From contig CAWDPQ010000017.1 in the NCBI GenBank assembly GCA_963804245.1, forward strand, positions 157,545 through 221,544: DNA of 64,000 bases, in the 5' to 3' direction. The notes under the pieces are model-generated. The model did not search any database. It worked only from the letters and a program-made list of their open reading frames with translations, and was not told the origin of the DNA. Below, piece after piece: positions 4,982 through 14,550 of the stretch (position 1 is the stretch's first letter; each line of letters opens with the position of its first letter). Made by a program: the position numbers and the translations under genes. The DNA comes from an uncultured Acidobacteriota bacterium (lineage in GTDB: Bacteria > Acidobacteriota > Vicinamibacteria > Vicinamibacterales > 2-12-FULL-66-21).

Positions 4982-6131
4982 ATGGATTCCGCCTGTGCGG
5001 TTCAGCCTCGCATCCTGATCGCCGACGATCAGCCGGACCTCATCGATGCCCTCAAGCTCCTGCTCAAAGCGGAGGGCATCCATATGCGAGGCCGTAACCT
5101 CCCCGGACGCGGCCCTTGCCGCGCTCCGTGCCGAGGCGTTCGATCTGCTCTTGATGGATCTGAACTATACGGGCGACACCACGTCGGGGCGTGAGGGCAT
5201 CGATCTGCTGTCCCGCATCCAAGCGCTCGACAGCACGCTGCCGGTGATTGTCATGACCGGATGGGGCTCGGTGGATCTCGCCGTCGAGGCCATGCGCCGT
5301 GGCGTGCGCGACTTCGTGCAGAAGCCGTGGGACAACAGCCAGCTTGTTGCCACGCTGCGCAGCGAGATCGAGCAGGGCCGCGAACGACGTCAGCGCCTGC
5401 AGCACGAACGGCGCGAGATGGAAGAGGCGCGCCGCATCCAGCGGCAGCTGCTGCCCACCTCCCTGCCGCAGCTCGAAGGATGGGAGCTCGCCTTTTCGTG
5501 GCAGCCGGCGTCAGGGGTTGGCGGTGACTGCTTCGACGCCATCATGCTCACCCCCACGCGAATCGCGCTGTCGATTGCCGACGTCGTCGGCAAGGGAATT
5601 CCAGCGGCGCTGCTGATGTCGAACCTGCAGGCGGCAGTGCGCGCGTTTGCGACAGCCACTACCGAACCGCGCGAACTGTGTCACCAGGTGAACAGGATCC
5701 TTTGCGGCCACATCGCCGAAGGACGTTTCATCAGCTTCTGCTACTGCATCATCGACACCGAAATCGGCACGCTCTCGTACTGCAATGCCGGCCACTATCC
5801 CCCGATCGTCGTCCATGCCGACGGCAGCGTCGATCGACTCACGGCAGGCGGCGCAGTGCTCGGCGTATTTCCCGATTCGTCCTACGAGCAAGGCAGCACG
5901 ACCCTGGCCGCTGGCGCCCGGCTCGTGCTCTACACGGACGGCATCACCGAAGCTCAGACGAAGATTCCCGAGACCGACGAGGAATTCGGCGAAGAACGGC
6001 TCGTGGATCTCAGCGTGACCCACCGGGATTGCGGCGCTCCGGTGCTGGAGGACAGGCTGAGGGCCGCCGTCACCTCGTTTACCGGTGGTCGATTCCAGGA
6101 CGACGCCACACTTATTGTCGTTAGCCGCTAG
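4982..6131 (+). CDS. Receiver domain + SpoIIE/PP2C phosphatase (RsbU-like), one frameshift near 5082
   Basis: RILIADDQ (ORF 4982) joins FDLLLMDLN...VQKPW and VGGDCFD...ADVVGKG...LYTDG...DDATL (ORF 5046). Confidence 0.88.
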
Positions 6132-6167
6132 TCGCCAGTCGTGCGAGTCGGCCGCGTTCGTCGTCTA

Positions 6168-6216
6168 TCCGTCACTGCCAACAGGCATTTCGTCACACAA
6201 ATGCGCACTTCGTACC
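6168..6216 (+). promoter_or_regulatory. Candidate LytTR-type direct repeats
   Basis: tccgtcac (6168), ttcgtcac (6189), ttcgtacc (6209): 20-21 bp period, upstream of the lytS/lytT-like pair. Confidence 0.35.
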
Positions 6217-6319
6217 GCCACAGCGTCAGTTGGGCCCACCGTTCGCAGCCGGAAATGACCACTGGCGGGCTCAGACGAGCGACTCTGATCTTGACGAAGC
6301 ACAGCAGGCCACTTGATAG

Positions 6320-7460
6320 TTGGCCTTGATGGAGAAAGCCTGGACACCGCCGGTGCGTTGGATAGTCCTGGTGGCGGCTGTCCTGAGCCTGTTCTCGACC
6401 GCTCAGGCCTACAGACTGTCCACGCTGAACCTGCGCGGTCCGTACGACATCGAGGTCGGATCGCTCCTGTTGCTGAACATCGCGTATTGGTTCGTCCCAG
6501 CGGCGTTCTCACTTCCCATCTTCTATCTCGCCCGCCGCTATCGCCTGGACACTGGACGATGGCCCGGCTCCCTGGCTATTCACATCGCCGCCGCCCTCTT
6601 CTTTTCAGTGGTGCACCTGTTCTGCATGCTCGGCGTCCGCTCTGCTGCTGTGGACCGATGCAGGCAAACCGCCGACGATCTCCTGGACCTCCTTTGCGCA
6701 GCGGCAGTATCTGATGCAGCTTGACTGGCTGCTGATGACGTACTCGGCGATCATCGGATTGAGCTATGCGCTCGACTACCGACGCGAGTCGCAGGCGCGG
6801 GCGATCAAAGAGGCCACGCTCGAAACGCGCCTGGTGGAAGCGCAGCTGAAGACGCTGCAGGCAGAGCTCCACCCGCACTTCCTGTTCAACACGCTGCACG
6901 CCATCTCGACGCTGGTGCACACCAGCCCGGACGCGGCCGACCGGATGATCAGCCGCTTGAGCGATCTGCTGCGTCTGACCTTCGATGGAACCGGCGCGCC
7001 GGCCGTGTCGCTTCAGGAGGAGCTCGAGTTCCTCCAGAAATACCTCGAGATCGAACAGATTCGATTTCAGGATCGTCTATCGGTGCTGTATGACGTCGAT
7101 TCCGAGACGCTCGACGCAGAGGTGCCGCGTTTGATCCTGCAGCCGCTCGTCGAGAACGCGATCAAGCACGGTGTCTCGCCTCGCAGCGGCCGCGGCCTCA
7201 TTCAGATCTCCTCGCGCCTCCGCGACAATGCGTTGTGGATTGAAGTTCGCGACAACGGCGTCGGTCTGGACGGCAAGGGGCGGTCGCGGCTGCGCTCGGG
7301 CGTCGGCCTGTCGAACACGCGCGCCCGGCTCGAATGCCTTTACGGAACGGCGCATCGCCTGGAATTCTCCGAGGGCAGCGAAGGTCTCGCCGTTCAGATG
7401 CAGATTCCGCTCACCCGCCTGCCGCCCGGCGCCGGGGACGCGGCGGTGCGGGTCGCATGA
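6320..7460 (+). CDS. LytS/YehU-type sensor histidine kinase, one frameshift near 6640
   Basis: Multi-TM N-terminus; LQAELHPHFLFNTLHAIS, LQPLVENAIKHG, DNGVG, GVGLSN. Confidence 0.9.
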
Positions 7461-8245
7461 CGCAAACGCGGACGTCCGGTCGAACGCGCGTTCTCATTGC
7501 CGACGACGAACCGCTGGCGCGCGAGCGGCTGAGGATGCTGCTGTCGAAAGAGGACTGGGTCGAGATCGCCGGCGAGTGCGACAACGGTCACGACGCAGTG
7601 GCGGCGATTCAGAAGCTCAAACCGGATCTCGTCTTCCTCGATGTCCAGATGCCGGGCAGCACCGGGTTCGACGTCATTGACAGCGTCGGGGCGGGCCGCA
7701 TGCCGGCGGTCGTCTTCGTGACGGCCTACGATCGCTATGCGCTGCGCGCGTTTGACGTGCACGCGCTCGACTACCTGCTCAAGCCGTTCGACCGCGAGCG
7801 GTTCCAACAAGCGCTGGGGCGCGCGCGACAGCATCTGGACAGGAAAAACGCCGGCGAGCTCGAACGCCGCCTGCTCGAACTGGTCCAGGATCTGCGATCC
7901 ACGCCACAGCGGCCCGAGCGCTTCGTCATCAAGAGCGGCGGGCGCGTGTTCTTCGTCCGTACGGACGAAATCGATTGGGTGGAAGCGGCCGGCAACTACG
8001 TCAAGCTTCACGTCGGCAACGAAGCCCACCTCCTGCGCGAAACCATGAACGCGCTGGAAGCGCAACTCGATCCCGATGTGTTCTTCCGCATCCACCGATG
8101 CCACATCGTGAACATCGAGCGCGTGAAGGAGCTGCAGCCCTGGTTCAACGGGGAATACGTCGTGTTCCTCCGCAGCGGCGCCCGCCTGACGCTCAGCCGC
8201 GGCTACCGGGAAAAGCTCCAGGATCGGATTGGCCGGTCGCTCTGA
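7457..8245 (+). CDS. LytTR family response regulator
   Basis: ATG overlaps kinase TGA; ADDEPLAR, FLDVQMP, YLLKP; LytTR FFRIHRCHIVN. Confidence 0.93.
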   Translation: MTQTRTSGRTRVLIADDEPLARERLRMLLSKEDWVEIAGECDNGHDAVAAIQKLKPDLVFLDVQMPGSTGFDVIDSVGAGRMPAVVFVTAYDRYALRAFDVHALDYLLKPFDRERFQQALGRARQHLDRKNAGELERRLLELVQDLRSTPQRPERFVIKSGGRVFFVRTDEIDWVEAAGNYVKLHVGNEAHLLRETMNALEAQLDPDVFFRIHRCHIVNIERVKELQPWFNGEYVVFLRSGARLTLSRGYREKLQDRIGRSL

Positions 8246-8252
8246 TCGCATT

Positions 8253-8308
8253 CCCCAGCTCCCCAGTTCCCCAGTTCCCCAGCTCCCCAGTTCCCCAGCT
8301 CCCCAGTT
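8253..8308. repeat. (CCCCAGYT)x7 octamer tandem repeat
   Basis: Seven consecutive units, each CCCCAGCT or CCCCAGTT, between convergent genes. Confidence 0.95.
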
Positions 8309-8314
8309 TCTGAT

Positions 8315-10298
8315 TCACCTTGTCCACCCGAACGACAGGACTGTGCGTCCGTCGCGAAGGCCATGCGCGACATCTGCACGCAGCACTCCGGCTCCGGGCA
8401 GCGCCACACGAATTCCGGCGCCTGCGTCCACGTGAGCGCGTCGATCGCCGAACGTCGGCACCGCGAACGCGCGTGCGGTGTCGACGAACACCGCCGGCGC
8501 CAGGCGCAGCGTTCGCAGGACGGGACGAGCCCAGTACCGACCACTCGACCCCGGCATGGACAAGTCGGCGGCCGAACACGCCGCGGACCACGCCGTCGTG
8601 AAGGAGCGGGTGGGCACGCAAAAGCACCTCACGCCCCTGCCCGGTGCCCGCGCCCGGCAGCAGCGCCAATGGCGTCTCCGAAGTGGTGGTCGTCAGACCA
8701 CCACGCGTGGACCATACCGATCCCACTCGCGAGTGTGACGAGCGCCAGTCTGACGTGACGCCGAAAGTAGACGCGCGAAGACCCCCAACAAGAATCGACC
8801 CGTCGACCATCGCCCGGCCGAGACCGCCCGCGAAGGTGCGTTCGACGCCGGCGACGAGCGACGCCGTCGTGTCCTGGTCCCACCGGTCAACGGCTGCGCC
8901 CGCCTTGATCCGGGTGACGCCGCTGGTCCAGTCGGACGCGGTGAGCATCACGCCGCGTCGGCGCTCCTTGATCTCGGATCCCGCCGCGCCGTAAGTCTGG
9001 TTCTCCACTAACGCTTCCAGCGACCAGATGCCGCCGAACGGCGACGGAGCCTCGACGCCGAGCGCCAGCCGCGGACGTCTTTCCCACCATCGCCACGCCG
9101 CCGTCCACAGCTCGCCGCCCCCGGTTGGACTCGCCATGGCGACGCTCAACTCGCGATCCGTCGCGGCGCGAATGCCGGCAGCAGACAGCGATACGAGATC
9201 CGAAGGAAACAACGGTCGCTCGAGCACGGACGCCATCACCTTGGCGCGGTCGTCCTCGCGAGGTTCGTAGGTGACCCGCGACCCGAGGAGCGAGGGCAAC
9301 GCTTCCAGCCGCCGCCGCGCACGCGCCAGTGCGAAACCGGTCAGCAGCGTGTCCGGTTGGAGGTGGAGCGCCCTGGCAGCCACGGCGTACCGTGTCCGTT
9401 CGAGACCGCGGATATCCGCGAGATCGACAACCGGAACGCCAATCCGGTTCCACGCATTCAACGCTTCGATGTCGCGCCCGAGAAGGAAGAGGGCTGAAGC
9501 CAGGATTCGAGCTGAATGTCTATCGGTGGGATCCCGCTCGAGGGCCCGACCCGCATCTCGCGCCGCCTCGCTCCAGTCGGAGCGCAGCGCCTTCACCCCG
9601 GCCAGCTCCCGCCACGGCGCTGGATCCCGCGGACACTCGGTAGTGGCGATTTCGAGGATGCGCTGGGCGCCGGCGAGATCCGAGACCGCCGTGCGGATGC
9701 CCTCCTCCACCAGCCCGGTGCAGACCGGATTTCCGCGACGGGCATCCGCATCGGCCGACGGTGCGTTCGTTGACGAATCCGCCACGGCACCGGATGTCAC
9801 TGCGGTTCTCGGTTCGGCGACGAGCGTCCAGAACCGCGACGCCGACCACGCCCGTGTGAAGGCCTCCGCCTCCAGGACGCGAAAGGGCGAGCGAGCCGGA
9901 TCGTGCACGATGACCCGATTCCCTCGCCAACCGACGATCACGACGTAGTGAAAGCGGCCCGGCCGATCCTCGATGAGCGCGATCACCGGCCGGCGTTTCG
10001 CCAGCAGGTCCTGCACGCGCGACGCGTCTCCTTCGATCGCGACCGCTGCATACCCGCGCCCTTCGAGCGCTCGGATCAGCTCGCGGCCGCGAATGCCCTT
10101 GGCATCGGCATCAACGAGATCGGCAAACGTCTCCGCGTAGACGGCACTCGTCCCCCAATACCGCATCACCATGGCGATTGCCGCGCCGCCACACAGCGCT
10201 TCGCTCTGCGGGAGGAACGGGACGTCGAGAAGAGGTCCGGGTGAAGAGTCGGATTGGGCCCGAGCCGGGGAAGGGGCGGCCGCCGCGGCCAATGCCAC
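8315..10298 (-). CDS. C39-like cysteine peptidase-TPR-POTRA-outer-membrane beta-barrel protein, one frameshift near 8540
   Basis: QSEALCGGAAIAM / HYVVIVGW / HDPA triad; TPR-like helices; POTRA-like IRGLERTR...RRLEALP...VLERP; barrel end VDAGAGIRV...LRADVAHGL...SFGWTR in ORF 8315..8632. Confidence 0.75.
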
Positions 10299-10350
10299 CG
10301 CGGCCGTCAGGACAACGCGAAGAAAGCGGGCGATGTGGTCGACGTCAGCC

Positions 10351-10740
10351 TCAATCCGCGATCACAACGATGAGGATGACGATCAGCAGCACGATGATAA
10401 TCGTCGTCGTTGAGATGACGATCGTTGATGCCCCACCGGCGAGATCGTTCTCGGCCTGCCTCGCCTGGGACGCCAGGTCACGCAGGTCGTCGCCCTGAAG
10501 GGTCGATACCGCGGCAGCCGCCTTCTCGACCGACAGTCCGGCCCGCGCTGCAATTGTGCGAACTTCGGTACGGTGCAGAAGTGTGAGAATCGCGTCACGG
10601 TCCGCCTGATCCCGGCTGACCCGCTCCGCCACCGCCTTCGCCAGATCTGTTTTTCCGATGACGTGCGTCTGCGCCTGAGCGGCAGGCGCGACGAGCAGCA
10701 GTGCAAGGGTTACCGCTAGCAAACGCCGAACGATTCTCAT
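10351..10740 (-). CDS. Secreted PA2779-like protein with a double-Gly motif and hydrophobic C-terminal peptide
   Basis: Signal peptide (AQA), helical middle, DLAGG followed by ASTIVISTTTIIIVLLIVILIVVIAD; adjacent to the C39 gene. Confidence 0.7.
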   Translation of the reverse strand: MRIVRRLLAVTLALLLVAPAAQAQTHVIGKTDLAKAVAERVSRDQADRDAILTLLHRTEVRTIAARAGLSVEKAAAAVSTLQGDDLRDLASQARQAENDLAGGASTIVISTTTIIIVLLIVILIVVIAD

Positions 10741-10848
10741 CTGAAGCCTCCTCGAACAGTCCGAGTCAGGGACACCAGATTGGTACGGCCAAGCATCTTC
10801 CGTACCCGTACCTGAAGCTGAACCGCCGGATCCGGAACGACCAGGAGT

Positions 10849-13282
10849 TTACTCGTCGCGCAGGACGACCATGGGGTCGACGCGAGTCGCGCGGCTGGCG
10901 GGGACGTAACACGCGAGTCCCGCAACCACGGCGATAAAGGCCATCACCGCAGCGATGGTACCGGGATCTGTGGGCCTGACGTTGAAAAGCTGCGCTTGGA
11001 GAAAGCGCGTCAGCACCAGCGACGCGGCGAGCCCGATCACGAGTCCGGCCACCGTCAGCCGCGCACCCTGGCCGAGCACCATTCCCAGCACGGTCTGACG
11101 CGTTGCGCCGAGTGCCATGTGGATGCCGATCTCCTTGCGGCGTTCGCTGACGGTGTATGACAGGATTCCGTACGTGCCGATTGCGGCCAGCAGCAGTGCC
11201 AGGCCGGCAAACAGCCCGAGCAGCTGCGCGAGGAATCGCGGTCGCGCGACCGACTCGGAGAACACGTCTTCCATCGTGCGCAGCCGCACGATGGGCAGCG
11301 TCGGATCCATCGTTCCGACAATCTGCCTGGATGTTCGTTGCCAGCGATTCGACGGGCAGCGCCGATCTGATGACGATGTTCATGTTCGAGGGCGCGAAGT
11401 TGGTGAGCCGCCCTTGTTCGGCCATGAAGTACAACTCGGTCCCGGTCTTGCTGCCCACTCCACCCTGTTTCACGTCACGGACGACGCCGACGATCGTCAA
11501 CCAGGGATTCTTGGGGTTGAACCCGACGCGCAATCGCTTGCCGATCGGACTGCGGTCTTTGTAGAACGTCTTTGCCAGCGTCTCGTTCACCATCACGACC
11601 GGCGTGCCCGTAGTATCGGACAGCATGAAGTCCCGTCCTTCGATGACTGGAATTCCCATCGTCGTCAGGTATTCCTGCGTGACCGTCTGATAGTAGTCGA
11701 CGTTCTCGAACGGAGGTTGCCCTTGCGTCGTGTAGTCCTCGAAGTCCGTATCGTTCGCGTTCACGAGCCGCATCGGCGGAAGGCCTGTCATTCCAGCGGC
11801 ACCCTGCACGCCAGGAATCTGACGAAGCTGATCGATCAGCCGCCTGGAGAAGTCGACGCGTGACTGCGGTGCCTGGTACGAGGCTTGAGGCAGGACGACG
11901 CCAAACGTGACGAGCCGGCTTCGGTTGAAGCCGGCATCGACCTTCATCAGATTCCAGAAGCTGCGCAGGAGCAGGCCGGCGCCGACCACGAGCACCACCG
12001 CCAGGGCGACTTCACCCATGACGAGGCCGCTCCGCAGCCGCGCGCGGGCGGCATTGGCCGTCGAGCGCTGCCCCGACTCCTTGAGGGAGGCAGTGACGGT
12101 GCGCTCGCGCAGATGCAGCAGAGGGGCCATCCCGAACAACGCCCCGGTGACGAGCGAAATGACGACCGTGAACAGCAGCACGACGGGATCGAGAACGATG
12201 TTCGTGGCGCGGGGAAGACTCTCGGGGTTGGCGGCGAGCATCGCCCTCAGGCCGGCAAAGCCCAGAGCCACGCCGAGAACCCCGCCGATGAGGGCGAGGA
12301 GTATGCCCTCGGTCAAGAATTGCCGGAGGAGTCTGAAGCGTCCGGCGCCAAGGGCCGCGCGAATCGCGAACTCCTTCTGTCGCGACTCGGCGCGCGCCAG
12401 CAGCAGGTTGGCCAGGTTCGCGCAGGCAATCAGGAGCACGAAACCCACTGCCCCTTGCAGCACCCAGAGCGCGGTCGCGATGCCGCCGACGAGATCCTCC
12501 TGAAGGCCGTCGAGGCGCAGACGATGATTTTTCGGGTCGGGTGTGTGGACTTTCGCATTGAGCTCGTTCCACTGAACGAGCATGCGCTCCACGTCTGCTC
12601 CGGCCTGAACCATGCTCACGTCGTCCCGCAGGCGACCAACGAGGTAGAGGAAATGGCCGCCGCGGTTTCCGGGATTCGCGGGATCCAACGTCAGCGGCAG
12701 CCACACTTGCACTTTCGCGTCGTGGATGTCGTAGCCGGCGGGCATGATGCCCACGATGCGCGTCGGAGCGCCGTCGATGCGGACAACGCGGCCCATCACT
12801 GATTCGTCCGAGGCAAATGCCGTTTGCCAGATCTCCTGGGACAGGATGGCGACGTCCTCTGCTCCGGGCAGCGTGTCTTCTCTCGTGAATTGACGCCCGC
12901 GGATGGGAGCCACGCCGAGGACCGGCATGAGCTCTGAGGTCACGATGGCGGAGTTCACGCGGCGCGGCTGGTCCGTGGTGCCGAGGTTCACCGCACCGGC
13001 GCGATACGCGCCGACTTCAGCGAACGACTTGTTGCGCTCGCGGAACTCCACGAACTCCGGTGCGGAAACCCAGAACTGGTCGAACCCGAGCGTGGGAAAC
13101 TGCGAGGTGATGAACACGAGCCGATCGGGCTGCTGGTACGGGAGCGGCTTCAACAGCACGCCGTTCACGACGCTGAAGATGGCGCTGTTCACGCCGATGC
13201 CGAGCGCCAGCGTCAGCACGGTGACGACAGCATAGCCGGGGCTCTTGCGCAGGTTGCGAAGGGCGTAACGTAAGTCGTGCAT
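10849..13282 (-). CDS. ADOP-type duplicated MacB/FtsX ABC permease, one frameshift near 11320
   Basis: MHDLRYALRNLRKSPG...LALGIG; LLIACANLANLLLAR...EFAIRAALGA; C-terminus RRKEIGIHMALGA...PASRATRVDPMVVLRDE. Confidence 0.92.
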
Positions 13283-13416: not shown

Positions 13417-14112
13417 TCACAAACGGCGCACGCGAGGTTCCGGTGAGCCTTCCCATCGATATTCATAGTGTCCGCCGGCCCTCACGTTTCGGACGAGGCT
13501 CGGGCGGAAACAGGCCAGACACTCCCCCGAGGCGTGACGCACGCTGCGGTAGACGATGCCGTTCGATCCCGAGTCGAGGAGCTGCCGACCCAGTTCCTGC
13601 GATGAGCGGTAGTCGGCCGGATCGTAAAGAGCATTCCAGAACGCGGCGCGTCGGCCGGCTGGGGACGGGCCGCGAACGTCGTGAAAGCGGGCGCTGAAGT
13701 CGGCGAGGTAAACGCGCATCTGCACCCGCGTCTCGAAGCCGCCGACCTCACGAAGCTCCTGAGTCCGACGATAGGTCGACTCAGCCAAAGCCGTTTCAAT
13801 CGTTCGTGCGGCGTACCAGGCACCTCGGTCTTCGCCTGTGAATCGCCCACCGCCTGGGGACGGGTGGCAGTACGCCGCCATGATGACGGAGTCCATCGGT
13901 CGTCCGACCACCCACTCGTCGCGCGGTACGGCGCTCAGGATGCCCAGCTCACCGGTGATGCGATCGTTGGTCCACCCCTCGAGCTCGATGATCGCGTCGA
14001 CGTCGGCAGAACTGGCCACGCGATCGAAGAGACCGGCGGTCGGGTAGCGGCTGGCGATCAAGCGCGGCGCCGCGCGCCAGCGGATGAAGGCTTGGGGAAC
14101 CGCGACGTCCAT
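13417..14112 (-). CDS. RES-domain toxin
   Basis: RLIASRYP...ALAESTY...GIVYRSVRH (R-E-S residues); downstream of an Xre-like gene. Confidence 0.88.
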   Translation of the reverse strand: MDVAVPQAFIRWRAAPRLIASRYPTAGLFDRVASSADVDAIIELEGWTNDRITGELGILSAVPRDEWVVGRPMDSVIMAAYCHPSPGGGRFTGEDRGAWYAARTIETALAESTYRRTQELREVGGFETRVQMRVYLADFSARFHDVRGPSPAGRRAAFWNALYDPADYRSSQELGRQLLDSGSNGIVYRSVRHASGECLACFRPSLVRNVRAGGHYEYRWEGSPEPRVRRL

Positions 14113-14127
14113 GCCGGATCGACGTGC

Positions 14128-14550
14128 TCAGCCGCGGCGCGCGTCCAACAGGCGCCGCACACGGTACAGCCCGTCGATGCCGCCGTCGATCATGAGATCG
14201 AGCGCCCGTCGACCGCCGAAGAGTGGATGGCTGTTCGGCATGCGCACCCAGGCGTCCGCGAATGCCGGCTCGGGATAGAGAACGTGCAGGTTCTTGTAGA
14301 TGCCGAGGATCAGCGAGAGGCGCGTCAGCGTGTCGAACGCGAGCGCGCCGTGGTCGCCGGCCTTGTATTTGTGGTACGTGGATGCCGCGGGCCAGCCAAG
14401 CAAGCCGCGCTGCTCCGCCACGGACAGCCCCCAGGCGGCGGCGATGTTGAAGAACGCGCGCAGCGCCGGTCCCGACAGTCGCTTGCGCGTCTGCGGATCC
14501 GGCTTGACCGTGGGCACGGCCACGGATGCGCTGCGGGCCCGTGTCTCCAT
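14128..14550 (-). CDS. Xre/MbcA/ParS-type antitoxin
   Basis: ALRAFFNIAAAWGLS...LLG HTH; WVRMPNSHPLFGGRRALDLM...VRRLLDA C-terminal toxin-binding domain. Confidence 0.9.
   Translation of the reverse strand: METRARSASVAVPTVKPDPQTRKRLSGPALRAFFNIAAAWGLSVAEQRGLLGWPAASTYHKYKAGDHGALAFDTLTRLSLILGIYKNLHVLYPEPAFADAWVRMPNSHPLFGGRRALDLMIDGGIDGLYRVRRLLDARRG

What the first reader, a model, noticed from the sequence alone, without database searches (positions are those of the whole stretch)
10351..10740. Sec-exported double-glycine precursor beside the C39 protease: candidate peptide-maturation system
Seen: signal peptide, ~80-aa helical pro-region, then LAGG followed by a 26-aa very hydrophobic tail (ASTIVISTTTIIIVLLIVILIVVIAD), immediately upstream of and co-oriented with the C39 gene. 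Known: C39 peptidases cleave after Gly-Gly leaders, and PA2779/PA2778-like gene pairs exist with unknown function. Inferred: cleavage outside the cytoplasm either releases a membrane-active peptide (bacteriocin- or pilin-like) or sheds the helical domain from a C-terminal anchor.
Basis: partly seen in the sequence, partly recalled or inferred. Interest (0 to 1): 0.72.

Follow-up and report, generated by a model that had tools for sequence, protein, structure and literature searches.

The report
Anchored Gly-Gly protein with dedicated protease
This is a real two-gene unit: a small exported protein held in the inner membrane by a greasy tail, next to a cysteine protease fused to an outer-membrane barrel that probably cuts it at a conserved Gly-Gly. 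The family is catalogued but has never been tested.

Summary
ORF 10351-10740 (minus strand, 129 aa) encodes a Sec signal peptide, an 80-aa four-helix domain, L-A-G-G (residues 100-103) and a 26-aa aliphatic tail. It is a PA2779-family / DUF6627 protein.

The gene downstream encodes a C39 peptidase with the full Gln/Cys/His/Asp set. Here it is fused to TPR repeats, one POTRA domain and an Omp85-type barrel.

- **Gly-Gly conservation:** 130 of 137 representative clusters have it, 22-26 residues from the C-terminus. The second Gly is 96-100% conserved in three distant clades.
- **Linkage:** the two genes co-occur in 30 of 30 assessable relatives and lie side by side. Split versions (DUF6627, C39 and TPR as separate genes) occur in other phyla.
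- **Expression:** rhizosphere metatranscriptome contigs cover both genes.

Most likely the peptidase acts in the periplasm and cuts after Gly103. That would free the helical domain from an inner-membrane anchor. Cleavage is inferred, not shown.

The bacteriocin or pilin reading is poorly supported, because the tail behaves as a stop-transfer anchor. The family has names but no published function. The barrel fusion appears undescribed in the searched literature.

The window's frameshift in the protease gene is probably an assembly error.

The parts
10351..10740 (-). Gene for the 129-aa PA2779-family / DUF6627 precursor (stop codon 10351-10353)
   Evidence: ORF list. NF033919 41.7 bits against cut-off 40. 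DUF6627 26.5 against 27. 1804 homologues.
10672..10740 (-). Sec signal peptide, residues 1-23 (MRIVRR / hydrophobic core / AQA)
   Evidence: Read from the sequence. Ala23 is at least 90% conserved in 91 sequences. Modelled as a separate helix. Cleavage by signal peptidase I is inferred.
10438..10671 (-). Periplasmic four-helix domain, residues 24-101
   Evidence: AlphaFold2 helices 30-55, 58-66, 71-78 and 83-101, with block pLDDT 89-97. Arg48 is invariant. No structural relative in the PDB.
10432..10437 (-). Gly102-Gly103, the proposed P2-P1 of the cleavage site (preceded by Leu100-Ala101)
   Evidence: Gly-Gly in 130 of 137 clusters, 22-26 residues from the C-terminus, with Leu at -4 in 111 of 130. 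Gly103 is 96-100% conserved in three clades.
10354..10431 (-). 26-aa tail: Thr-rich juxtamembrane segment (ASTIVISTTT) plus an aliphatic transmembrane helix ending ...IAD
   Evidence: Modelled loop 102-109 (pLDDT about 63) and helix 110-128. Thr112 is 90% conserved. Distant homologues add a charged stub after the helix.
8315..10355 (-). Gene for the C39 peptidase-TPR-POTRA-Omp85 barrel protein. The reading frame changes near 8537 in this assembly. The probable start is upstream of the GTG at 10298.
   Evidence: Pfam C39 families. Intact homologues are 650-690 aa. AlphaFold2 model of an intact homologue. Foldseek top hits are TamA and BamA.
9807..10232 (-). C39 peptidase domain: Gln 10206-10208, Cys 10191-10193, His 9948-9950, Asp 9900-9902
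   Evidence: Peptidase_C39 E 9.5e-13. All four residues are invariant in 54 homologues and were mapped onto the window. The nearest solved relatives are double-glycine peptidase domains of PCAT transporters, LahT and ComA.
9447..9719 (-). TPR domain, with two invariant Cys
   Evidence: Helices 199-290 of the model. Weak Pfam TPR hits. Cys198 and Cys228 are invariant. Mapping.
9219..9431 (-). Single POTRA domain, joined to the TPR by about 5 residues
   Evidence: A beta-alpha-alpha-beta-beta unit at 296-366 of the model. Weak POTRA hit. Mapping.
8318..9152 (-). Omp85-type beta-barrel with a VRG(V)F loop motif. The last ~70 residues are in another frame in this assembly.
   Evidence: Strands 389-666 of the model. 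TamA 4c00 at E 4.7e-16 and BamA hits. Frames. Contigs from three metagenomes are one base shorter at 8537.

Best explanation
**What it is.** This is a dedicated substrate-protease pair of the PA2779/PA2778 type.

**Shown from sequence, models and comparison:**
- The small protein has a Sec signal peptide, a conserved 80-aa helical domain, a nearly invariant Gly-Gly, and a single C-terminal transmembrane helix.
- Its partner has its own signal peptide and an intact C39 catalytic set.
- In this lineage the partner is fused to TPR, one POTRA and an Omp85 barrel.
- The two genes are inherited together.

**Inferred mechanism:**
1. The precursor is exported by Sec and its signal peptide is removed after Ala23. 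It stays in the inner membrane, N-terminus out, held by the tail.
2. The C39 and TPR parts of the partner hang in the periplasm from the outer-membrane barrel.
3. The TPR captures the helical domain, and the peptidase cuts after Gly103.
4. This frees an 80-residue (8.4 kDa) soluble domain. A 26-residue peptide is left in the membrane as waste.

What the freed domain then does is not known. It may stay in the periplasm or leave through the barrel.
For: **Family membership:**

**Gly-Gly conservation:**
- Present in 130 of 137 clusters at a fixed 22-26 residues from the end, with Leu at -4 and Ala/Val at -3.
- Gly103 is the most widely conserved position across three clades.
- In the Nitrospirota-type clade, Gly-Gly is present in 109 of 120.

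**The peptidase is probably active and of the right kind:**
- Gln/Cys/His/Asp are invariant in 54 homologues.
- The closest solved structures are all double-glycine peptidases.
- C39 enzymes cut at Gly-Gly outside leader contexts too (bioRxiv 10.64898/2026.05.07.723447).

**Linkage:**
- Of 61 relatives, 30 have both genes and 30 have neither. The one exception has its peptidase gene at a contig end (Fisher p 1e-16, not corrected for phylogeny).
- The order small gene then C39 holds in 27 of 29, with 21-149 nt between the HMM matches.
- Split DUF6627/C39/TPR modules occur in Nitrospirota and Thermodesulfobacteriota, in either gene order.
- A C39 gene lies within 4 kb in 59 of 70 loci from several phyla.

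**Anchor reading of the tail:** in other clades the helix is followed by K/R/H/E-rich stubs.

**Periplasmic side for the protease:**
- The TPR joins the POTRA with about 5 residues.
- Barrel-less partners have signal peptides or lipoboxes.

**One protease, one substrate:** this is the only such tail in the genome.

**Expression:** RNA contigs cover both genes and their junction.
Against: - No cleavage has been observed, here or in the literature.
- A conserved Gly-Gly just before a membrane helix could be only a helix break.
- About 5% of clusters lack Gly-Gly (AG, AAG, QD, NT). Other Acidobacteriota often have Ala-Gly.
- The residues before Gly-Gly that are conserved (-4, -11, -14, -18) also form the packing face of the last helix in the model. 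They need not be a protease recognition helix.
- The site sits next to the inner membrane while the protease is tethered to the outer membrane. Reach depends on a flexible 20-residue linker.
- No multimer prediction could be run.
Confidence: 0.52

Rival explanations
1. There is no cleavage. The small protein is a membrane-anchored partner of the peptidase: an adaptor, a tether across the envelope, or an inhibitor or immunity-type pseudo-substrate. The Gly-Gly is a hinge or an active-site plug. The peptidase acts on other targets. One version is a type Vd-like passenger displayed on the surface, with the small protein protecting the producer's periplasm.
For: - Tight 1:1 linkage fits enzyme-regulator pairs as well as enzyme-substrate pairs.
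- PA2778 was once listed as a possible T6SS toxin candidate (bioRxiv 10.1101/733030).
- C39 toxins with immunity proteins exist.
- The helical domain is a conserved fold, as a binding partner would be.
Against: - A hinge does not need two glycines, Leu at -4 and a fixed register.
- Immunity proteins usually diverge fast, whereas this family is well conserved (43% mean column identity among 50%-identity representatives).
- Barrel-less homologues have no route to the surface, yet keep the same partner.
- The TPR-POTRA junction of about 5 residues cannot span the outer membrane.
Confidence: 0.25
2. The tail is a C-terminal sorting signal, and the C39 enzyme works like a sortase. It forms a thioester after Gly103 and passes the helical domain to another acceptor (a lipid, a glycan or an envelope protein) instead of water. 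In the barrel-fused form this could be for display at the outer membrane.
For: - The layout of motif, membrane helix and short charged end is the same as in LPXTG, PEP-CTERM and GlyGly-CTERM signals.
- Papain-like peptidases pass through an acyl-enzyme (established enzymology).
- The enzyme is fused to an outer-membrane module.
Against: - Known sorting enzymes serve many substrates, whereas here there is exactly one.
- No acceptor is evident.
- No match to GlyGly-CTERM or PEP-CTERM models at E<=0.1.
- No rhombosortase above cut-off in the genome.
- No C39 enzyme is known to me to transfer to an acceptor other than water.
Confidence: 0.08
3. The product is the 26-residue hydrophobic peptide, released as a membrane-active bacteriocin-like or pilin-like molecule. 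The helical domain would be a long leader.
For: - In classical double-glycine systems the part after Gly-Gly is the product.
- The Thr-rich segment after Gly-Gly is conserved in this clade (Thr112 90%).
- A PilT-like gene lies upstream in 7 of 15 relatives.
Against: - The peptide would already be buried in the producer's own inner membrane, with no exporter nearby.
- The tail varies by I/L/V interchange, like an anchor.
- Other clades add a cytoplasmic charged stub.
- The 'leader' is a conserved folded domain with a Sec signal, unlike any double-glycine leader.
- There is no globular pilin part.
- The PilT neighbour is absent in this window.
Confidence: 0.05

Closest known systems
PA2779 family protein with PA2778 family cysteine peptidase (NCBIfam NF033919 / NF033920; Pfam DUF6627, PF20332)
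   Same: - The small protein passes NF033919.
- It has a signal peptide, a helical domain, Gly-Gly and a C-terminal membrane helix.
- It lies next to a C39+TPR protein.
- The same module occurs across phyla.
   Different: - The peptidase scores only 54 bits against the 150-bit equivalog cut-off.
- It carries about 370 extra residues, a POTRA plus an Omp85 barrel. These are absent from the barrel-less homologues examined.
- The tail here has a Thr-rich TxxISTTT segment and no charged stub.
- The family has no tested function.
Double-glycine leader peptides and their PCAT / ComA-type C39 peptidase domains
   Same: - The peptidase fold and catalytic residues match, and these are its nearest solved relatives.
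- Gly-Gly is preceded by Leu at -4 on an amphipathic helix.
   Different: - There is no ABC transporter.
- Both proteins are Sec-exported, so any cut happens in the periplasm, not the cytoplasm.
- The part before Gly-Gly is an 80-aa folded domain, not a 15-30 aa leader.
- The part after it is a membrane anchor, not a mature peptide.
FapD / FapF of the Pseudomonas functional amyloid system
   Same: A Sec-exported periplasmic C39 peptidase works with an outer-membrane barrel. Its catalytic Cys is needed for secretion (PMC5557850).
   Different: - FapF is a separate, trimeric 12-stranded barrel, not a fused Omp85.
- The substrates are amyloid subunits.
- The FapD target is still unknown.
- There is no DUF6627 partner.
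Type Vd autotransporters (PlpD) and two-partner secretion (TpsB/FhaC)
   Same: An Omp85-superfamily barrel with an N-terminal POTRA. The order signal peptide, N-terminal enzyme, one POTRA, barrel is as in PlpD.
   Different: - The N-terminal enzyme is C39+TPR, not a patatin lipase.
- The TPR abuts the POTRA with no membrane-spanning linker.
- The partner has no TPS domain.
- The top fold matches are TamA and BamA. No TpsB chain is among the 50 listed.
GlyGly-CTERM signal with rhombosortase
   Same: A Gly-Gly motif is followed by a membrane helix at the extreme C-terminus of an exported protein. A dedicated protease is proposed to remove it.
   Different: - No match to the GlyGly-CTERM model.
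- No rhombosortase above cut-off.
- The proposed enzyme is a soluble papain-like peptidase, not an intramembrane serine protease.
- There is one substrate rather than many.

Membership tests
PA2779 family / DUF6627 | Score above the curated model cut-off | tested here: met
   NF033919 scores 41.7 bits against 40 and 40.9 in the genome scan. Pfam PF20332 scores 26.5 against 27, just under. Near-identical homologues carry a precomputed PF20332 hit.
PA2779 family / DUF6627 | N-terminal signal peptide and a single C-terminal membrane helix, about 125 aa in all | tested here: met
   Sequence and model. The same layout is seen in 91 aligned members.
PA2779 family / DUF6627 | Encoded next to a C39-type peptidase with TPR | tested here: met
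PA2778 family cysteine peptidase (NF033920, equivalog) | Score above the 150-bit cut-off, with a C39+TPR architecture of about 255 aa | tested here: not met
   It scores 54.1 bits. The protein is about 670 aa, with an added POTRA and barrel. It is related, but not an equivalog member.
Double-glycine leader peptide / PCAT substrate | Short N-terminal leader without a Sec signal, ending in Gly-Gly | tested here: not met
   A Sec signal peptide plus an 80-aa folded domain precede the Gly-Gly.
Double-glycine leader peptide / PCAT substrate | Cognate C39 domain fused to an ABC exporter | tested here: not met
   The C39 is fused to TPR, POTRA and an Omp85 barrel. The neighbouring ADOP/FtsX permease is not conserved with the pair.
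Double-glycine leader peptide / PCAT substrate | Cleavage directly after Gly-Gly | not testable with these tools
   This needs co-expression and mass spectrometry.
GlyGly-CTERM / rhombosortase | Match to the GlyGly-CTERM model, and a rhombosortase in the genome | tested here: not met
   No such hit at E<=0.1. The best TIGR03902 match is 45 bits against 84.
Omp85 superfamily (for the partner) | POTRA domain(s) followed by an Omp85-type beta-barrel (16-stranded in known members) with a VRGF/Y-type loop 6 motif | tested here: met
   Model pLDDT 84. TamA and BamA hits at E 5e-16 to 1e-12. VVRGVF in the window sequence. PF01103 is precomputed for a few homologues. DSSP resolves 15 long strands, so the count of 16 is not confirmed.
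Type Vd autotransporter | Passenger translocated to the cell surface through its own barrel | not testable with these tools
   The domain order is compatible. The 5-residue TPR-POTRA junction argues against export of the TPR.
Two-partner secretion | Partner protein with an N-terminal TPS domain; TpsB with two POTRA domains | tested here: not met
   The small protein is all-helical with no TPS hit. Only one POTRA is present.

The most novel reading that the evidence does not exclude
The barrel-fused form is a protease-gated export route of the Omp85 type. The precursor is parked in the inner membrane by its tail, and the periplasmic C39 domain clips it at Gly-Gly. The TPR and POTRA then pass the freed helical domain to the fused barrel for release or surface display. 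The Thr-rich beta-prone segment next to the cut, seen in every barrel-carrying locus examined and in none of the barrel-less ones, may dock on the POTRA. This would be a self-contained two-gene secretion system unlike types I-XI.
Probability: 0.15. Interest if true: 0.85.

Novelty: new variant of a known kind. Interest (0 to 1): 0.55.

Why it matters
The PA2779/PA2778 pair is widespread. The small protein has 746 clusters at 50% identity. It occurs in Acidobacteriota, Nitrospirota, Thermodesulfobacteriota, Aquificota and others, and Pseudomonas gave it its name. In Pseudomonas stutzeri the family's gene was among the candidate strong constitutive promoters screened (PMC10155442). Yet nobody has tested what it does.

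A defined substrate, a defined site (after Gly103) and a defined catalytic Cys make it testable in a week of bench work.

If the cut is confirmed, it would be the first assigned substrate for a periplasmic C39 peptidase; the target of the only studied one, FapD, is still unknown. It would also be a new kind of juxtamembrane shedding in the bacterial envelope.

The fusion of such a protease to an Omp85 barrel, abundant in soil Vicinamibacteria, hints at an undescribed use of the Omp85 scaffold.

Tried and rejected
- **Plasmid search:** tblastn of the small protein against PLSDB plasmids found nothing.
- **Broad locus search:** A narrower alignment, A3, worked.
- **Fold of the small protein:** Foldseek found no relative (best E 3.9).
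- **Cluster look-up for taxonomy:** it gave almost no names.
- **Fused precursor-peptidase proteins:** the long 'fused' hits (P0130, P0132, P0144) are frameshifted or mis-called metagenome ORFs.
- **Sigma-54 promoter:** None lies upstream of 10740, and window-wide matches are at chance level.
- **Sigma-70 and terminator scan:** nothing usable.
- **More substrates in the genome:** none found.
- **A third conserved gene:** in 15 relatives, only a PilT-like gene (7 of 15) and ADOP permeases (6 of 15) recur, so there is no third component.
- **Pseudomonas sequences:** they could not be reached with the collections at hand.
- **Multimer prediction:** not available.

Full report
**1. The observation**

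The ORF is at 10351..10740 on the minus strand (129 aa). It has an ATG start with GGAGG 8 nt upstream.

Reading along the protein:
- Residues 1-23 form a classical Sec signal peptide (MRIVRR, a hydrophobic core, AQA).
- Residues 24-101 are helical.
- Residues 100-103 are L-A-G-G.
- Residues 104-129 are ASTIVISTTTIIIVLLIVILIVVIAD (GRAVY 2.6).

AlphaFold2 with 91 homologues gives mean pLDDT 87. It models the signal helix, four helices (30-55, 58-66, 71-78, 83-101), a low-confidence loop 102-109, and a membrane helix 110-128.

- 1804 homologues at E<=0.001.
- 746 clusters at 50% identity.
- Contigs from rRNA-depleted rhizosphere metatranscriptomes cover it, the next gene and the junction between them.
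- Differences from near-identical metagenome strains are about half synonymous in both genes.

**2. What it is**

The protein passes NCBIfam NF033919, the PA2779 family (41.7 bits against a cut-off of 40). It sits just under the Pfam DUF6627 threshold (26.5 against 27). Foldseek finds no solved relative of the helical domain.

The downstream gene has C39 peptidase hits (E 9.5e-13). It matches the PA2778 family model only weakly (54 bits against 150).

Homologues of this gene are 650-690 aa, and 1267 were found. I modelled an intact one, P0271, which has pLDDT 84. Its parts are:
- a signal peptide;
- the C39 domain (42-175);
- a disordered linker (177-195);
- TPR helices (199-290);
- one POTRA (296-366);
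- a beta-barrel (389-666).

Foldseek ranks TamA (4c00, E 4.7e-16) and BamA first. The window sequence keeps a VRG(V)F loop motif. The catalytic Gln, Cys, His and Asp are invariant in 54 homologues, as are two Cys in the TPR. The nearest solved sequences of the C39 part are the double-glycine peptidase domains of PCAT transporters, LahT and ComA (E about 3e-4).

**3. State of the window copy**

In this assembly the protease gene changes frame near 8537, and its last ~70 residues lie in ORF 8315..8632. Contigs from three independent soil and rhizosphere metagenomes are all one base shorter there. The neighbouring permease gene shows the same kind of one-base excess near 11326-11329. These look like assembly errors, and intact copies exist.

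The start of the protease gene is a separate matter. The signal peptide (ARFLRVVLTAAVALAAAAAPSPARA|QSD) lies upstream of the first canonical start, the GTG at 10298.
- Relatives start at a TTG or GTG that overlaps the stop codon of the small gene (TTGA or GTGA).
- Here that TTG is out of frame by one. The in-frame codon is ATT (10355-10353), which overlaps the TGA by one base.
- Five DNA and RNA contigs spanning the junction show no gaps.

This junction arrangement is therefore real.

**4.

*Gly-Gly conservation.*
- Among 137 full-length representatives of 50%-identity clusters, 130 have Gly-Gly 22-26 residues from the C-terminus.
- Leu is at -4 in 111 of those 130, and Ala or Val at -3.
- I made a joint alignment of three clades: Vicinamibacteria-type, Nitrospirota-type, and other Acidobacteriota. 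The second Gly is 97%, 96% and 100% conserved, among the best-kept positions in the family.
- In the Nitrospirota-type clade the motif is LKVGGDGLG, present in 109 of 120.
- Other Acidobacteriota often have Ala-Gly.

*Synteny.*
- In 61 related genomes the small gene is present in 30 and the fused protease in 31. All 30 small-gene carriers are among the 31.
- The one extra genome has its protease gene at the very end of a contig.
- In 29 of 30 the genes share a contig and a strand. In 27 the order is small gene then protease, with 21-149 nt between the model matches.
- Outside this order the module is split into DUF6627, C39 and TPR genes, in either order. Examples come from Nitrospirota and Thermodesulfobacteriota.
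- In 70 loci from Nitrospirota, Thermodesulfovibrionales, Syntrophales, Thermocrinis, Planctomycetia and Omnitrophota, 59 have a C39 gene within 4 kb. Several of the rest are cut by contig ends.

**5. Which outcome**

The tail behaves as a stop-transfer anchor:
- Its length is fixed.
- It varies by I/L/V interchange.
- In other clades it is followed by a charged stub such as LTGHRVIVK.

The part before Gly-Gly is a conserved folded domain, not a leader.

Both proteins are exported, and barrel-less peptidase partners have signal anchors or lipoboxes. Any cut therefore happens in the periplasm. In the fused form the TPR joins the POTRA through about 5 residues. That is too short to cross the outer membrane, so the TPR, and most simply the C39 domain, is periplasmic.

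This genome has exactly one ORF with such a tail, so the enzyme is dedicated to one substrate.

The best reading is shedding of the 80-residue domain (8.4 kDa, pI 6.1) from its anchor after Gly103. I give it about 0.5, because nothing shows cleavage directly.

**6. Rivals**

- **Uncut partner, regulator or immunity protein of the peptidase, including a type Vd-like surface protease:** about 0.25.
- **Sortase-like transfer using the tail as a sorting signal:** about 0.08. The GlyGly-CTERM model does not match and there is no rhombosortase.
- **The hydrophobic 26-mer as the product:** about 0.05.

**7. What is known**

Full-text searches find no functional study of PA2779, PA2778 or DUF6627. The only mentions are these:
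- a transposon insertion between PA2779 and bswR (PMC3985676);
- PA2778 listed as a possible T6SS toxin candidate (bioRxiv 10.1101/733030);
- the P. stutzeri family member listed among candidate strong constitutive promoters (PMC10155442).

The closest studied analogue is FapD. It is a periplasmic C39 peptidase required for amyloid export through the FapF barrel, and its target is still unknown (PMC5557850). I found no paper describing a C39-Omp85 fusion.

Earlier notes of this scan reached similar readings for sister loci in other genomes. They are leads, not independent evidence.

**8. Verdict**

This is a genuine member of a catalogued but untested family, in its barrel-fused variant. The Gly-Gly cleavage hypothesis is well motivated and directly testable. 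The bacteriocin or pilin reading should be dropped.

Noticed in passing
window 8530-8545: The C39-Omp85 gene changes reading frame here in this assembly. Contigs from three independent metagenomes are one base shorter at 8537, so intact copies exist and the shift is probably an assembly error.
   Followed up: yes
window 10766-13282 (minus), near 11326-11329: The upstream ADOP/MacB-type permease gene is also split between two frames (838-aa ORF, with its true C-terminus in ORF 10849..11310). Three metagenome contigs are one base shorter at 11326 or 11329. This is a second likely indel error within 3 kb.
   Followed up: yes
window 10298-10355: The protease gene has no canonical start that keeps its signal peptide. 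Relatives use a TTG or GTG overlapping the upstream stop (TTGA/GTGA). Here the in-frame codon is ATT, overlapping the TGA by one base. The arrangement is shared by DNA and RNA contigs from several studies. This suggests a possible AUU start or coupled re-initiation.
   Followed up: partly
window 8253-8308: An octamer array (CCCCAGYT)n lies between the convergent protease and LytTR genes. Metagenome and metatranscriptome contig depth there is 50-300 times that of the flanks, so the repeat is common in many soil organisms. It is the subject of another first-stage note.
   Followed up: no
window 13417-14550 (minus): A RES-domain toxin (231 aa, PF08808 E 1e-31) is preceded by an Xre/MbcA/ParS-type antitoxin (140 aa). 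This is a standard RES-Xre toxin-antitoxin pair.
   Followed up: no
window 10780-10815 (minus strand): An inverted repeat, GGTACGG-N11-CCGTACC, lies in the 108-nt spacer between the permease stop and the small gene. It has no T-run. It could be a hairpin that ends the permease transcript or regulates the pair.
   Followed up: no
loci L032, L034-L037 and others (relatives): A PilT-like ATPase gene lies directly upstream of the small gene in 7 of 15 related genomes but not in this window. It is probably lineage synteny.
   Followed up: partly
loci L049 (G113) and L053/L054 (G144): Some other Acidobacteriota carry two tandem DUF6627 genes, or two unlinked copies. For the two G144 copies, a BLAST search with the C39-TPR part found no peptidase in the 13-kb loci.
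   Followed up: no
own genome, contig C8 near 231,500-231,600: A homopolymer run of roughly 80-90 bases reads as poly-Phe in two frames (on the strand scanned). It is likely an assembly artefact.
   Followed up: no
window 5046-8245 (plus): Three regulatory genes lie here: a receiver plus PP2C/SpoIIE-type phosphatase gene, a LytS-like histidine kinase and a LytTR response regulator. They converge on the protease gene and are not conserved with the pair.
   Followed up: no
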